NCBI GenBank assembly: GCA_951406725.2
Contig: OX597838.1
Coordinates: forward strand, 41,230,001 to 41,294,000
Direction: 5' to 3'
Length of the DNA: 64,000 nucleotides
Source: Octopus vulgaris
Lineage: Eukaryota
The notes beneath the pieces were generated by a model that saw nothing but the letters and a program-made list of their open reading frames with translations, was not told the origin of the DNA and searched no databases. The position numbers and the translations under genes are program-made. How positions within the stretch are numbered: the stretch's first letter is position 1; each line of letters begins with the position of its first letter. Shown in pieces: positions 2,745-59,682 of the stretch.

Positions 2745-3068
2745 ATTATTGCTTGTTTCTCCCTTTCCGAGATCAACGACAGTTTGTCACTGGAAAAAGT
2801 ATATAGTATTTTGCGTTTGGAATTAGTTCTCATTGCTAGCTGGCGATTACCACGCACTGATGACGGGTTACTACTCAGAAACCTGGGTCTGTGTGTACCA
2901 CGTAAGGCCAGAGGTGGAAAAGATAACTTCCCTTCACAAATACTAATCGGACACAGACATTGTATCGCTAACCAGCTGGAGGAGATGTCTTCCTGGGGCT
3001 ATAAATAACAGTAGCATCGTCCCCTATGAGTCCACCACATTTAGGTGGCAAATATACTATACATATAT
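2745..3068 (+). mobile_element. Small hammerhead-bearing repeat (Penelope-like pLTR / retrozyme-like), copy 1
   Basis: Closely similar inverted copy at 5213-5535; contains a hammerhead motif; ends at a TA run. Confidence 0.65.
2851..2895 (+). ncRNA. Minimal type I hammerhead ribozyme motif
   Basis: Stem I CACGCA/UGUGUG, core CUGAUGA, stem II GGGU-UACU-ACUC, GAAA, short stem III (ACCUGGGU), cleavage triplet GUC ending at 2889. Confidence 0.75.
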
Positions 3069-3110
3069 ATAGTTACACGTGCCTGATGTGTGTGTTTGTG
3101 TGTGTATAAA

Positions 3111-3565
3111 TACTTGTTTCAGTCATTAGACTGCAGCCATACTGGGGCACCGCCTTTGAAGAAATTTTTGTCGAATGAATCGACTCCACAGCTTGTTTTT
3201 TTTTTGAAGCCTGGTAGTATTCTATCGGTCTGTTTTGCCGAGCTGCTAAGCTACGGCGACATAAACATACCAACACCGGTTGTCAAGCTTTGGCGGAGGA
3301 CAAATGCACGCGTGCACACACACACACACACACACACACACACACACACACACACACACACACACACACACACACACACACACACACACACACACACACA
3401 CACACGACGGACTTCTTTCAGTTTCCATCTACCAAATCTACTCACAAGGCTTTGGTCGATCCGAGACTATAGTAGAAGATACTTGCCCAAGGTGGTATGC
3501 AGTTGGACTGCACTTGCAACTATGTTGTTGGGAGGAAAATTTCTTATTTTACAGTTACGCCTTCG
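3111..3565 (-). mobile_element. SINE family A, diverged copy with an internal (CA)n
   Basis: Tail ...CAGTCTAATGACTGAAACAAGTA and body match the other family A copies. Confidence 0.8.
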
Positions 3566-3996
3566 CGTATAAAACGGCAATCTTTATATTCAACTTAACG
3601 TAGATATATCAGAATACCTAATATTGCGCTATTTACTTTGAGAGGTCCTCTCATATGGACGCATGGTGCATAAAAGCACTCTTGTTTATATCGTTGGCAG
3701 ACGAAAATCATTTGCTACGGGAACCGGAATTGCCAGGTCACGTTGTTTCGCTTTGCTCGGTCTTCTCAGTGGAAGACGTCCAGTCGCGTAGTGTTCTTGA
3801 GCAAAAAAAAAAAGCTTCATTTCATGCCGCTCTTGTTTACTCAGCAGTAAATGGGTGACCGTTCGATGAAATAGTTTTCCGACCAAACGAGAATGTTAAC
3901 CTGCTCGCCTAGCCAGCGGGGTGGCGTCATTCGAAGTCTAAAACAACCTAAAGTGCATTGTGACCCAGGAGTTTTCATCTTTTTGGTAAAAAAAAA

Positions 3997-4920
3997 AAAT
4001 CATCAACAGCATATGATATCATTACTGCGATACTGGTTCCTAGCCAAGTGTTTTTTCCCGTTGAGAAACTGATGATAGTCAGATGGGAACCAAATTAGAA
4101 GAATAGGGAGAGTGATCAACCTGTTCAAAAGCACAGTCACACACAGCAGCCATTGAAGTGAGGAACTTGTGTGCTGGACCATTGTCCTAATGAAACCTTT
4201 CATGAGTTTTCGAGGGCATTTGGTCTTGACGGTCTTTCGTAACTGCCTCAGCAAGTTGGTAAAGTACTCTCTGTTGATGGTGTGGCTCTTCTGAATATAG
4301 TCAATGAACACAATGCCTTTTGCATCTTAAAAAACTGAGGCCATCACCTTCCCTGACGATGAAACGACCCTGGCCTTCTTTAGAGCAGGCGGGGAGGACT
4401 GTTTCTGCTGCACGGATTGCCTCTTTGTCTCTGGCTCAAAGTGATGAACTCAACACGCCTTTTCGGTTAGGAAACGTTGAAGGAAACCAGCTGGATCCGC
4501 CTCAAACTGTGTCAGATTTTAACATGATGTGATAGCCTGGTGCGCTTTTGATCAGGTGTCAGAAGATGTGGCACCCACCGAGCAGAAACCATGCCAAGTC
4601 CATTGTGCTCCCTGAGGTCTTCATCAGTGCTAAATTAGAACGAGTCATATGAACACTTCACTGCGTTGCATGGAGGTCCATGTTATTAATGATAAATTTC
4701 AGTCATCACTCGGCTTAAACCTTTCAAACGTAATCATTTGTAAGAAATTATTGTTCGAAAATATCAGTTTCCGTTCTAGTATTAATAATGGAAATCACAG
4801 GGGCATAACACTTGAGGGATTAAAATTTATATCGAGGATTACATAATGCAGTGACCCCTTACACAGGACGGTTTGATTTAAAGCTGATTTGACTGACGTT
4901 TGTAGTAGGTCGAGCGACAT
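3997..4920 (-). pseudogene. Decayed mariner (Himar1/irritans-like) transposase remnant
   Basis: Minus-strand translation gives SARWVPHLLTPDQKR, GKVMASVF*DAKGIVFIDY, DNGPAH and HSPYSSNL, with frameshifts and stops. Confidence 0.8.
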
Positions 4921-5212
4921 ATATATATATATATATATATAGTGTGTATATATATATATATGATGTATATATATATACATTGTATACATATTGTATATAA
5001 ATATTGTACATACATACATTTATATATGTATATATATTGAATATATATACACATATACAGCATATATGTATATACACATATACAGTATATATATATATAT
5101 ATATATATATATATATATATATATATATATATATACATATACATATATATATGTGCATACATATACATTATATATATACAGTATATATATATACATATAT
5201 CAGTAACTATAA

Positions 5213-5535
5213 ATATATGTATAGTATATTTGCCACCTAAATGTGGCGGACCCATAGGGGACGATGCTACTGTTGCTTATAGCCCCAGGAAGACATCTCC
5301 TCCAGCTGGTTAGCAATACAATGTCTGTGTCCGATTAGTATTTGTGAAGGGAAGTTATCTTTTCAACCTATGGCCTTACGTGGTACACACAGACCCGGGT
5401 TTCTGCATAGTAACCCATCATCGGTGTGTGGTAATCACCAGCTAGCGATGAGAACTCATTCCAAACGCAAAATACTATATGCTTTTTCCAGTGACAAACT
5501 GTCGTTGATCTCGAAAAGGGAGAAACAAGCAATTA
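5213..5535 (-). mobile_element. Small hammerhead-bearing repeat, copy 2 (inverted)
   Basis: Reverse complement of 2745-3068; starts in a (TA)n tract. Confidence 0.65.
5386..5430 (-). ncRNA. Hammerhead motif with mutated core
   Basis: CACACA-CCGAUGA-UGGGUUACUAUGCA-GAAA-CCCGG-GUC-UGUGUG; stem III ACCCGGGU is a perfect palindrome; U4>C substitution in the core. Confidence 0.6.
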
Positions 5536-5580
5536 TAAATCTCCGAGCGAGAAGAAAACAGTAACAGCACGGAATCATAA

Positions 5581-58379: not shown

Positions 58380-58774
58380 AGGCGCAGGAGTGGCTTTGTG
58401 GTAAGTAGCTTGTTTACCAACCACATGGTTCTGGGTTCAGTCCCACTGCGTGGCACCTTGGGCAAGTGTCTTCTACTATAGCCTCGGGCTGACCAAAGCC
58501 TTGTGAGTGGATTTGGTAGACGGAAACTGAAAGAAGCCCGTCGTATATATGTATAGATATATATGCGATGTGTGTTTGTGTCTGTGTTTGTCCCCTTTGC
58601 ATTGCTTGACAACCGATGCTGGTGTGTTTATCTCCCCGTTACTTAGCGGTTCGGCAAAAGAGACCGATAGAATAAGTACTGGGCTTACAAAAGAACAAGT
58701 CCTGGGTCGAGTTGCTCGATTAAAGGCGGTGCTCCAGCATGGCCGCAGTCAAATGACTGAAACAAGTAAAAGAG
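58380..58774 (+). mobile_element. SINE family A, full length, inside (TATG)n
   Basis: Matches 24368-24778. Confidence 0.9.
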
Positions 58775-59137
58775 TATGTATGTATGTCTCTTCTGGTTTT
58801 TAATTCTTACAAACCTTCCGCTAAGGTAGGAGTTGGTTTCCAACAAAGACAGAAGGCTCCATGTTTTGGAATGGAGGTAACAGAGAGAAATTCACATTTG
58901 GAACTTGAGAGAAGTCTTATGCGAGCATTTGAGTGCGCAAACGTGTCTGCGTGTGTGCGTATATGTGTATGTACATGCAAACGTATGTTTATGTACTGAT
59001 ATGTGTGTCTGTTCTAGCTGTATATATAACTGTTACTCTGTCGAAGGTTGAGTATATATATATATATATATATATATATATATATATATATATATATATA
59101 TATATATATATATATATATATATATATATATATATAT

Positions 59138-59356
59138 AAAAGGAAATGACGAAAATGCTGACAAAATAATTTAAGTAATAGATAGATTTTTTCCTCTTAA
59201 GAGGAAAAAATCTATCAGAAAGGAACTCTATCTCTCTTTAAAAAACATCTTTTGATAAGCATAACAAATGCGCAACCGGTAAAAAGAACTTTCACCTAAT
59301 TAAATTACTTAAATTACTTAAATTATTTTGTCAGCATTTTCTTCATTTCCTTTTTT
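59138..59356. mobile_element. Small fold-back element in (TA)n with about 42-bp inverted termini
   Basis: AAAAGGAAATGACGAAAATGCTGACAAAATAATTTAAGTAAT is mirrored at 59313-59354. Confidence 0.7.
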
Positions 59357-59534
59357 ATATATCACAACTCGTGTTCCACATCTCCATTTTTAAATATATA
59401 TATATATATATATATATATATATATATATATATTGATAGAAATGGCAAGACAACAATAGAATGAAGGAGACCTCGACATTATGTAAATAGGGGAATTTAT
59501 CTGTAAATATATGTGACAATTATTCGGTAGTAAT

Positions 59535-59595
59535 GATAAAACTCCGAGTTTCGGATGTCGGGGCGGAAACCCACGCCGGCATCTCTTCAGTTATC
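59535..59595 (-). ncRNA. Type I hammerhead ribozyme motif, intact
   Basis: GAUAA-CUGAAGA-GAUGCCGG..CCGACAUC-C-GAAA-CUCGGA-GUU-UUAUC; perfect 5-bp stem I. Confidence 0.75.
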
Positions 59596-59621
59596 GGCCC
59601 ATCGAAAGAAATGCTATGAAA

Positions 59622-59682
59622 ATGACCTGAAGAGATGCTGGCGTGGGTTTCTGCCCCGACATCCGAAACTCGGAGTTTTATC
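59622..59682 (+). ncRNA. Hammerhead motif, inverted partner, with a weakened stem I
   Basis: CUGAAGA at 59627, GAAA at 59665, GUU at 59675; the 5' stem I arm is AUGAC instead of GAUAA. Confidence 0.65.

What the first reader, a model, noticed from the sequence alone, without database searches (positions are those of the whole stretch)
2851..59682. Many sequence-unrelated minimal hammerhead ribozymes in small microsatellite-embedded elements
Seen: at least five unrelated families carry the hammerhead core (CUGANGA...GAAA..NUH) in type I topology. They lie at 2851-2895/5386-5430, 16427-16462, 24246-24336, 40268-40340 and 59535-59682. Each has a different self-complementary or near-palindromic stem III (ACCCGGGU, ACGU, ACAAUUGU, ACGAUCGU, ACUCGGAGU), and most sit in 150-400 bp blocks bordered by (TA)n. 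Known: Penelope-like retroelements carry such minimal hammerheads in their pseudo-LTRs, and the palindromic stem III allows cleavage as dimers; a Penelope GIY-YIG fragment lies at 17271-17525. Inference: this genome hosts a diverse, TA-targeting set of non-autonomous ribozyme retroelements (retrozyme-like) mobilised by Penelope RT/EN. If this region is transcribed, they could cut host pre-mRNA.
Basis: partly seen in the sequence, partly recalled or inferred. Interest (0 to 1): 0.8.

Follow-up and report, generated by a model that had tools for sequence, protein, structure and literature searches.

The report
Penelope retroelement hammerhead tail fragments
The self-cutting RNA (hammerhead) motifs are really there, but they sit in short fragments that are likely the broken tail ends of several Penelope-like jumping-gene families inserted at TA repeats, an arrangement already published (octopus included), and these lone copies are likely inert.

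Summary
The motifs are real: a strict type I hammerhead descriptor finds 4 hits against 0.03 per shuffle (0 of 200 shuffles reach 4). Several listed copies are damaged (U4C at 5386-5430, A6U at 16427-16462, no stem I at 59620-59682), and 24246 and 40268 are related, not unrelated. The best reading is 5'-truncated 3' ends (pseudo-LTRs) of several Penelope-like element (PLE) families, not a separate retrozyme class. The 16427 motif lies 795 nt behind a Neptune-type GIY-YIG remnant on the same strand. 59434-59720 is an inverted copy with a tail on one side only, a PLE hallmark. Related PLE loci carry the same motif 148-424 nt behind the ORF. Published tables already list these forms, including Hydra-1 of Octopus bimaculoides with a (TA)n target (Craig 2021, File S2; Cervera 2014). 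No same-strand pair of one family exists here, so cis dimer cleavage of host pre-mRNA is unlikely. The scan noted solo PLE hammerheads before on other DNA. Open point: whether the very abundant 16427 family is non-autonomous with a family-wide A6U core. Interest 0.2.

The parts
2851..2895 (+). Family A hammerhead, copy 1 (exact core, 6-bp stem I, C.A at base of stem II then 4 pairs, stem III ACCUGGGU, C17 at 2889); element about 2744-3060, ending in a short TA run
5386..5430 (-). Family A hammerhead, copy 2 (core CCGAUGA = U4C, broken stem II, stem III ACCCGGGU); element about 5210-5537, 94% identical to copy 1, ending in the AT array 4919-5229
16427..16462 (-). Family B minimal hammerhead (core CUGUCGA = A6U, extra A after A9, 4-bp stem II, stem III ACGU, A17 at 16431)
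   Evidence: matches the Cervera 2014 consensus except position 6
16341..17549 (-). Likely one 5'-truncated PLE: GIY-YIG remnant, about 800 nt of 3' region, hammerhead, 99-nt tail ending at (CA)n
   Evidence: continuous contig cover 16320-17534 in 3 DNA runs, but no listed contig spans it whole
17253..17549 (-). C-terminal GIY-YIG endonuclease remnant of a Neptune/Nematis-type PLE
   Evidence: Pfam PF01541 E 0.063, below cut-off; 59% identical to the C-terminus of P0002, a 698-aa RT + linker + GIY-YIG protein
24246..24336 (-). Family C hammerhead (exact core, 7-bp stem II with long loop, stem III ACAAUUGU, A17 at 24252); element about 24216-24365 with TA on both sides
40268..40340 (-). Family D hammerhead (exact core, U.U at base of stem II, stem III ACGAUCGU, A17 at 40271); related to C; element 40235 to at least 40600
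40140..40187 (+). Second D-type copy, tail-to-tail with 40268 across the (AT)n at 40188-40234; core lost by a 41-nt deletion; element from about 39900
59535..59595 (-). Family E hammerhead (exact core, 5-bp stem I, stem III ACUCGGAGU, U17 at 59540), with a 119-nt tail to (AT)n
59620..59708 (+). Inverted 5'-truncated copy of E: begins at the core, lacks stem I and the last ~65 nt of tail; with 59509-59597 it forms one long hairpin
44205..44263 (+).
440..491 (-). Degraded candidate G (core CCGAUGA, stem III ACGCGU)
   Evidence: relaxed descriptor only

Best explanation
The window holds hammerhead motifs of about five or six sequence types, most ending near TA repeats, and they are likely the 5'-truncated 3' ends (pseudo-LTRs) of several Penelope-like retroelement families and likely inert as lone copies. 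Inferred mechanism: a full-length PLE in a partial tandem is transcribed; its two pseudo-LTR hammerheads would pair through the palindromic stem III and cut the precursor; the GIY-YIG endonuclease would nick (TA)n or (CA)n; reverse transcription starts from the RNA 3' end and mostly stops early, leaving hammerhead plus tail, sometimes with an inverted second copy. Shown here: the motifs, their palindromes, the TA adjacency, the endonuclease remnant upstream of one, the inverted-copy structure, and the same layout in related PLE loci. Inferred: the parent ORFs of families A, C/D, E and F (C/D, E and F look Hydra-type, B Neptune-type), every step of cleavage and insertion, and the host (likely an octopus-like cephalopod).
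For: (1) Above chance: 4 vs 0.03. (2) B lies 795 nt behind the stop of a GIY-YIG remnant on the same strand. Its best full-length relative has RT, a C-x5-C-x2-C linker and GIY-YIG, and named relatives come from Mytilus, Saccostrea and Pinctada. About 20,000-23,000 contigs per run from three coded organisms cover 16320-17534 without a gap, and some bridge the stop or the hammerhead. (3) Related loci (11 loci on 9 contigs): of the 6 contigs with >=300 nt behind the stop, 5 carry core + GAAA + palindrome + UH 148-424 nt downstream (L001, L004, L008, L010 exact core; L005 the published U3-A8 variant); the miss is L011, a weak partial match. L001 and L004 end in a U-rich tail and a TA run 62-65 nt after GAAA. 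(4) 59434-59720 is an inverted truncated copy with a tail on one end only, as in Craig 2021 Fig. 2 (PMC8557442). (5) Craig 2021 File S2 lists Hydra-clade hammerheads with 8-10-nt palindromes, U.U at the base of stem II, ATGG/CCAT stem I and the same ACUCGGAGU stem III as E; Files S1-S2 list Hydra-1 of O. bimaculoides with a hammerhead and (TA)n target. B fits the Cervera 2014 consensus but for position 6. (6) C and D differ in stem III by a double change that keeps the palindrome (ACAAUUGU/ACGAUCGU). (7) All three family pairs in the window are on opposite strands; single minimal motifs did not cleave in vitro (PMC4209133).
Against: Only one of the families has protein remains upstream: profile and tblastn searches with 130 PLE proteins and 7 locus ORFs found just 17250-17588, and these queries were mostly Neptune-like, so Hydra remnants were barely tested. 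No listed contig spans endonuclease to hammerhead, and 795 nt is longer than the 148-424 nt of relatives, so 16341-17549 could be two nested pieces. Summed contig depth falls in steps (near 16500 and 16725), not smoothly, which a non-autonomous short unit would also give; the tool warns that such depth cannot rank parts. L001 and L005 were found by pattern only and did not reach the score threshold. No whole genome was held, so no family consensus or 5'-end distribution was built.
Confidence: 0.8

Rival explanations
1. Some families (best candidate: the 3' ~380 nt of family B, 16341-16725) are non-autonomous, retrozyme-like units that have detached from PLEs and spread on their own using PLE RT/EN; the window copies are dispersed monomers.
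For: No ORF remains behind A, C/D, E or F. Summed contig depth drops about tenfold near 16725 in the DNA runs. Monomeric retrozyme copies are published and derive from PLE pLTRs (bioRxiv 10.64898/2026.07.22.740005). Non-autonomous PLE derivatives exist in Chlamydomonas.
Against: No tandem of any hammerhead unit in the window. Lengths vary from about 150 bp to 1.2 kb. The 16725 step coincides with a TG-rich low-complexity stretch that aligns badly. Published retrozymes mostly carry canonical hammerheads with loop-loop contacts, whereas minimal ones go with PLEs (PMC7229834).
Confidence: 0.14
2. The inserted motifs are active and cut host pre-mRNA, as monomers or as dimers between copies.
For: Four copies keep an exact core with stems I-III. 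The 8-11-nt palindromes give intermolecular duplexes of -6 to -15 kcal/mol. Retrozymes are depleted from introns in Xenopus.
Against: No same-strand pair of one family in the window. The palindromes fold no hairpin as monomers. E is locked in a -145.6 kcal/mol hairpin with its inverted copy. A monomers prefer a rod about 12-13 kcal/mol below the open-core fold. U4C and A6U cores are present; a change at position 6 (A6C) gave low activity (PMC3088659). No host gene or transcript was shown here.
Confidence: 0.05
3. The motifs are chance matches in AT-rich repetitive DNA.
For: The relaxed descriptor gives 0.78 hits per shuffle, so weak candidates (440-491, 18958-19005, 34394, 9167) may be chance. 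Rfam reports none at gathering score.
Against: Strict descriptor 4 vs 0.03, 0 of 200 shuffles. The same architecture occurs behind PLE ORFs and in published tables.
Confidence: 0.01

Closest known systems
Hydra-clade PLE hammerheads, including Hydra-1_Obim of Octopus bimaculoides (Craig et al. 2021, PMC8557442, Files S1-S2)
   Same: Type I topology, 8-10-nt palindromic stem III, U.U or G-C at the base of stem II, ATGG/CC stem I (as in D), ACUCGGAGU stem III (Hydra-2_aMil, Penelope-16_HM; as in E), short U-rich tail with GTTGT, (TA)n target, inverted 5'-truncated copy (Penelope-13_HM).
   Different: None of the window's sequences is the listed Hydra-1_Obim motif (its stem III is ACCAAUGGU); C, D and E have longer stem II loops (31-60 nt between the boxes); no Hydra ORF was found in the window.
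Minimal hammerheads (min-HHR) in metazoan PLE pseudo-LTRs (Cervera and de la Pena 2014, PMC4209133)
   Same: B fits the consensus NNN CUGANGAH G..C GAAAN-palindrome-UH NNN with the extra base after A9. The paper reports many heterogeneous families per genome, mostly as single truncated copies, and opposite-strand pairs 100-700 bp apart.
   Different: B has U at core position 6, a variant not seen in the alignment part read. No octopus entry was found in the supplement file searched.
Neptune/Nematis-type PLEs (C-terminal GIY-YIG with CCHH motif and cysteine linker)
   Same: 17253-17549 has CxxC-YIG-H-H/C residues and is 59-65% identical to PLE endonucleases; the full-length relative P0002 has the C-x5-C-x2-C linker.
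   Different: Only the last ~90 residues remain; RT and linker are absent from the window, so the clade rests on relatives.
Animal non-LTR retrozymes (Cervera and de la Pena 2020, PMC7229834; Li, Clavereau and Pollet 2026 preprint)
   Same: Small non-coding units with type I hammerheads, thought to be moved by PLEs.
   Different: Retrozymes are head-to-tail tandems of ~170-400-bp units that yield circular RNA; no tandem is seen here and RNA was not testable.

Membership tests
Type I hammerhead motif | CUGANGA and GAAA..UH boxes joined by stems I-III, open at stem I | tested here: met
   4 strict hits vs 0.03; 2851 copy meets it with a C.A mismatch and one wobble; 5386, 16427 and 59620 copies deviate
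Type I hammerhead motif | Self-cleavage at H17 | not testable with these tools
   No assay; only contigs were available, which cannot show RNA ends
Type I hammerhead motif | Rfam hammerhead model at gathering score | tested here: not met
   0 matches in the window; PLE loci with clear motifs also gave no hammerhead hit at E<=5, so the models miss this subtype
PLE pseudo-LTR hammerhead | Palindromic stem III / loop 3 | tested here: met
   palindrome-preserving double change between C and D
PLE pseudo-LTR hammerhead | Lies in sense behind an RT/GIY-YIG ORF, near the 3' end | tested here: inconclusive
   Met for B by position and continuous cover, without a single spanning contig; no ORF remains for A, C/D, E, F; met in 5 of 6 related contigs with room
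PLE insertion | Inverted 5'-truncated copy and tail on one end only | tested here: met
   59434-59720 vs Craig 2021 Fig. 2
PLE insertion | Insertion bias to (TA)n or other microsatellites | tested here: met
   6 of 7 3' ends near (TA)4+, the seventh at (CA)n; background 19%
PLE insertion | Variable 5' truncation across the family | tested here: inconclusive
   Window lengths ~150 bp to ~1.2 kb; contig depth rises towards the 3' end but is not a copy count; no genome
Neptune/Nematis-type PLE | C-terminal GIY-YIG with CCHH and a cysteine linker after RT | tested here: inconclusive
   CCHH-type residues present in the remnant; RT and linker only in relatives; no tree built
Hydra-clade PLE | Hydra-type RT/EN protein | not tested
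   No Hydra protein was among the queries; assignment of C/D, E, F rests on motif likeness to File S2
Non-LTR retrozyme | Head-to-tail tandem units, each with a hammerhead | tested here: not met
   No such tandem in the window; arrays elsewhere in the genome could not be examined
Non-LTR retrozyme | Unit-length linear and circular RNA | not testable with these tools
   No raw RNA reads listed

The most novel reading that the evidence does not exclude
Family B's 3' ~380 nt is a non-autonomous, very high-copy, transcribed PLE derivative of octopus-like genomes whose hammerhead carries A6U family-wide. A catalytically crippled hammerhead fold would then be kept through massive amplification as a recognition or pairing signal for the Penelope reverse transcriptase rather than as a catalyst. 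Not excluded: none of the 40 difference rows shown (mostly near-fixed differences between this copy and the family) falls in 16427-16462, though 250 rows were hidden; contig depth steps down near 16725.
Probability: 0.1. Interest if true: 0.6.

Novelty: new member of a known kind. Interest (0 to 1): 0.2.

Why it matters
As read here it matters little: it adds several probably unlisted family sequences to a published association (hammerheads in PLE 3' ends, many families per genome, TA targets, one octopus example). The function of PLE hammerheads is still called unclear (PMC8557442). A genome with about one strict motif per 16 kb and a very abundant family with a possibly non-canonical core would be a convenient place to test whether cleavage or only the fold is selected.

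Tried and rejected
Whole genome: none held, so no genome-wide scan, consensus or covariation analysis. Rfam: top 150 of 407 E-value matches were microsatellite and hairpin look-alikes without a hammerhead row; none at gathering. Family B pattern in viral and metagenome contigs: 0. PLE protein searches in viral and metagenome contigs: 0 confirmed. Word-based protein search with the remnant: none. Sequencing runs: no RNA holder listed; four runs laid, all contigs. Summed depth at the hammerhead bin was 190-247 times that of the endonuclease bins in three DNA runs and about 6,200 times in one run guessed to be RNA; the tool states that such depth is no copy number and no measure of expression, so it is not used as evidence. 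The base at 16455 (core position 6) could not be read family-wide. PLE protein remains upstream of A, D, F, G: none. Host: a Helitron piece has O. bimaculoides and a cuttlefish among its best named hits (49-69% identity), which only suggests a cephalopod; the abundant SINE resembles octopus tRNA-SINEs from recall only. Literature: 'octopus/Penelope/hammerhead', 'cephalopod/hammerhead ribozyme/genome' and four family B motifs found no description of these families; an O. vulgaris repeat annotation reports 190 PLE families (6.83%) and never mentions ribozymes. Lunse et al. 2016 is not held and may list related motifs; Repbase/Dfam could not be searched; supplement file 1 of PMC4209133 and the preprint's supplements were not seen. 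Weak candidates at 9167, 18958-19005, 34394, 37587, 47142 and the CUGACGA in a mariner coding piece (4345-4360) were set aside as chance or too degraded.
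Full report
Observation. The window is microsatellite-rich animal-like DNA (126 tandem-repeat rows; 13,744 bases masked). No whole genome was held. Every listed site holds a CUGANGA-like box, GAAA, a palindrome and a UH triplet in type I order. A strict descriptor gives 4 hits (cores at 24330-, 40337-, 44211+, 59590-) against a mean of 0.03 and a maximum of 1 in 200 shuffles that keep the microsatellites in place, and 0 in the reversed window. 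A relaxed descriptor gives 6 against 0.78 (max 3 in 60 shuffles). The signal is real. Rfam has no match at gathering score, and it also gave no hammerhead hit on related PLE loci with clear motifs.

Corrections. Three of the seven copies within the listed coordinates pass the strict test. The 2851 copy has an exact core, a C.A mismatch at the base of stem II and ACCUGGGU in stem III. The 5386 copy has U4C. The 16427 copy has A6U. The plus-strand arm at 59620-59682 lacks stem I. A clean motif at 44205-44263 was missed. The 24246 (C) and 40268 (D) elements are related: both have 48 nt from GAAA to the TA run, share a 13-nt tail block and align at z 6.7. Their stem III palindromes differ by a double change that keeps the palindrome. 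A further D-type copy lies tail-to-tail at 40140-40187 with the core deleted. TTGTTG occurs in 5 of 8 tails (A, B, C, D, E, F, G, H) against 4.3% of random 100-nt windows; the motif was picked after looking. Six of seven 3' ends reach (TA)4+ within 210 nt against 19% at random; B ends in (CA)n. Element lengths run from about 150 bp (C) through about 290 (E), 310-330 (A) and 580 (F) to about 1.2 kb (B).

What the elements are. The frame 17253-17549 (minus) is a GIY-YIG remnant (Pfam E 0.063). A full HMMER search gave 403 relatives at E<=0.001. The best full-length one, P0002 (698 aa, 59% identical over the remnant), has RT, a C-x5-C-x2-C linker and GIY-YIG, the Neptune/Nematis layout (PMC8557442). 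Its named relatives come from bivalves. The B hammerhead lies 795 nt behind the stop on the same strand. Contigs of three DNA runs from three coded organisms (22,728, 23,058 and 19,827 laid at >=80% identity) cover 16320-17534 without a gap; some bridge the stop or the hammerhead, none listed spans the whole. B is therefore likely the 3' end of a very abundant PLE family rather than a free-standing small element. No other PLE protein remains were found in the window with 130 full-length proteins and 7 locus ORFs.

At 59434-59720 the minus-strand E copy is preceded by an inverted copy that starts at the core and lacks the last ~65 nt of tail. The two fold into one hairpin of -145.6 kcal/mol (z -21.5). 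Craig et al. 2021 describe this for PLEs: an inverted 5'-truncated copy next to the 5' end, and a tail present at one end only.

Related loci. A scan of prokaryote genome contigs with a PLE alignment gave 11 loci on 9 contigs, presumably animal DNA inside binned genomes (inference). Three contigs have too little room behind the stop (L002, L003, L007). Of the other six, five carry core, GAAA, palindrome and UH 148-424 nt behind the stop: L001 (AUAUAU), L004 (AACGUU, U.U at the base of stem II), L008 (ACUAGU, in a tandem PLE), L010 (ACUGCAGU), and L005 with the U3-A8 variant. L011, a weak partial match, has none. L001 and L005 were found by pattern only, below the score threshold. L001 and L004 end in a U-rich tail and a TA run 62-65 nt after GAAA, like C and D.

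What is known. Cervera and de la Pena 2014 (PMC4209133; parts 1-2 of 4 of the text, passages and part 2 of supplement file 2) report minimal hammerheads in PLE pseudo-LTRs, many heterogeneous families per genome, mostly single and probably truncated, opposite-strand pairs 100-700 bp apart, an extra base after A9, palindromic stem III, no cleavage of a single motif and low cleavage of dimers. B matches their consensus but for position 6. Craig et al. 2021 (PMC8557442; passages, and supplement passages plus parts 2 and 52) tabulate Hydra-clade hammerheads with 8-10-nt palindromes, U.U at the base of stem II, ATGG/CCAT stem I and the stem III ACUCGGAGU. A C.A mismatch like A's occurs in PLE-X1_cBra. 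They list Hydra-1 of Octopus bimaculoides with a hammerhead and a (TA)n target. C/D, E and F thus look Hydra-type by motif; this was not tested by protein. A review (PMC6765202, passages) gives the dimer model and cites Lunse et al. 2016, which was not held. Retrozymes are tandem units giving circular RNA (PMC7229834, passages) and derive from PLE pseudo-LTRs (bioRxiv 10.64898/2026.07.22.740005, part 1 of 5 and passages). A change at core position 6 (A6C) gave low activity (PMC3088659, passages). An O. vulgaris repeat annotation counts 190 PLE families without mention of ribozymes (PMC13282606, passages and supplement passages); the giant squid paper counts 235 hammerhead loci (PMC6962438, passages). 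Searches for these particular families found nothing. The host is likely an octopus-like cephalopod, on weak evidence (and recall of the SINE type).

How it likely works. Inferred from the literature: tandem parent elements are transcribed, two hammerheads pair through stem III and cut, the endonuclease nicks a microsatellite, and early termination of reverse transcription deposits the 3' end. The palindromes fold no hairpin alone but give duplexes of -1.7 (B) to -14.9 (A) kcal/mol, which fits the dimer model. In this window all three family pairs (A1/A2, D/D2, E1/E2) lie on opposite strands, so one transcript cannot hold a cis dimer. E would be trapped in its hairpin, and A monomers prefer a rod about 12-13 kcal/mol below the open-core fold. 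These copies are likely inert, and cutting of host pre-mRNA is unlikely (0.05).

What remains open. Without a genome I could not build consensi or 5'-end profiles. Contig depth over B falls in steps near 16500 and 16725. That could reflect subfamily divergence and a low-complexity stretch, or a non-autonomous ~380-nt unit (0.14). None of the 40 difference rows shown lies in the B hammerhead, so U6 may not be private to this copy, but 250 rows were hidden. A family-wide A6U core in a very abundant non-autonomous unit is the most novel reading (0.1). Two earlier scan notes reached a similar 'solo PLE hammerhead, ordinary' reading on other DNA; they are not independent support.

Verdict. Observation partly confirmed; interpretation partly supported; new members of a known kind; interest 0.2.

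Noticed in passing
window 3997-4371 and 5581-5955: A 375-bp piece of a mariner transposase remnant is duplicated in inverted orientation at 99% identity, 1.2 kb apart, and one copy lies next to the 5' end of the family A copy at 5210-5537. It may be a template jump during insertion, a local duplication or an assembly artefact.
   Followed up: partly
   Followed up: yes
window 61147-61165 (+): 3' half of an E-like hammerhead (GAAA, ACUCCGAGU, A17) with a U-rich tail, inserted in a SINE; the same stem III is listed for Hydra-1/2_aJap.
   Followed up: partly
window 440-491 (-), 18958-19005 (-), about 34385-34415 (-), about 9155-9170 (-): Degraded or doubtful hammerhead-like remnants with palindromes ACGCGU, AUCGAU, ACAAUUGU and ACAGCUGU.
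   Followed up: partly
window 59139-59357: Hairpin-like element between TA runs with a perfect 36-bp palindrome at 59181-59216 and inverted ends; MITE-like or another inverted insertion.
   Followed up: no
window 45108-45669 / 59957-60541 and 49154-49311 / 61262-61420: Two dispersed direct repeats (585 bp at 92%, 159 bp at 94%) of unknown type.
   Followed up: no
window 24368-24759, 14703-14874, 25468-25797 and their many copies: Several abundant SINE-like or MITE-like families, one in more than ten copies in the window; tRNA origin from recall only.
   Followed up: no
window 42314-42865 (+); 51497-52278 (+): Helitron Pif1 helicase fragment (Pfam PF21530, E 2e-15) and mariner-type transposase remnants.
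   Followed up: partly
window 41110-42096; 20425-20917; 49847-50931: Tandem arrays of 160 bp x 6, 35 bp x 14 and 12 bp x 91; none carries a hammerhead by the scans run.
   Followed up: partly
L001-L011: Animal-type PLE sequences sit on contigs of bacterial genome bins (Bacteroidota, Campylobacteraceae, SUP05, Poribacteria and others), likely host DNA; L006/L008/L009 show a PLE tandem with a 3,083-bp period.
   Followed up: partly
window 14192-14451: Imperfect inverted repeat with an inner hairpin at 14357-14414, within SINE-like sequence.
   Followed up: no
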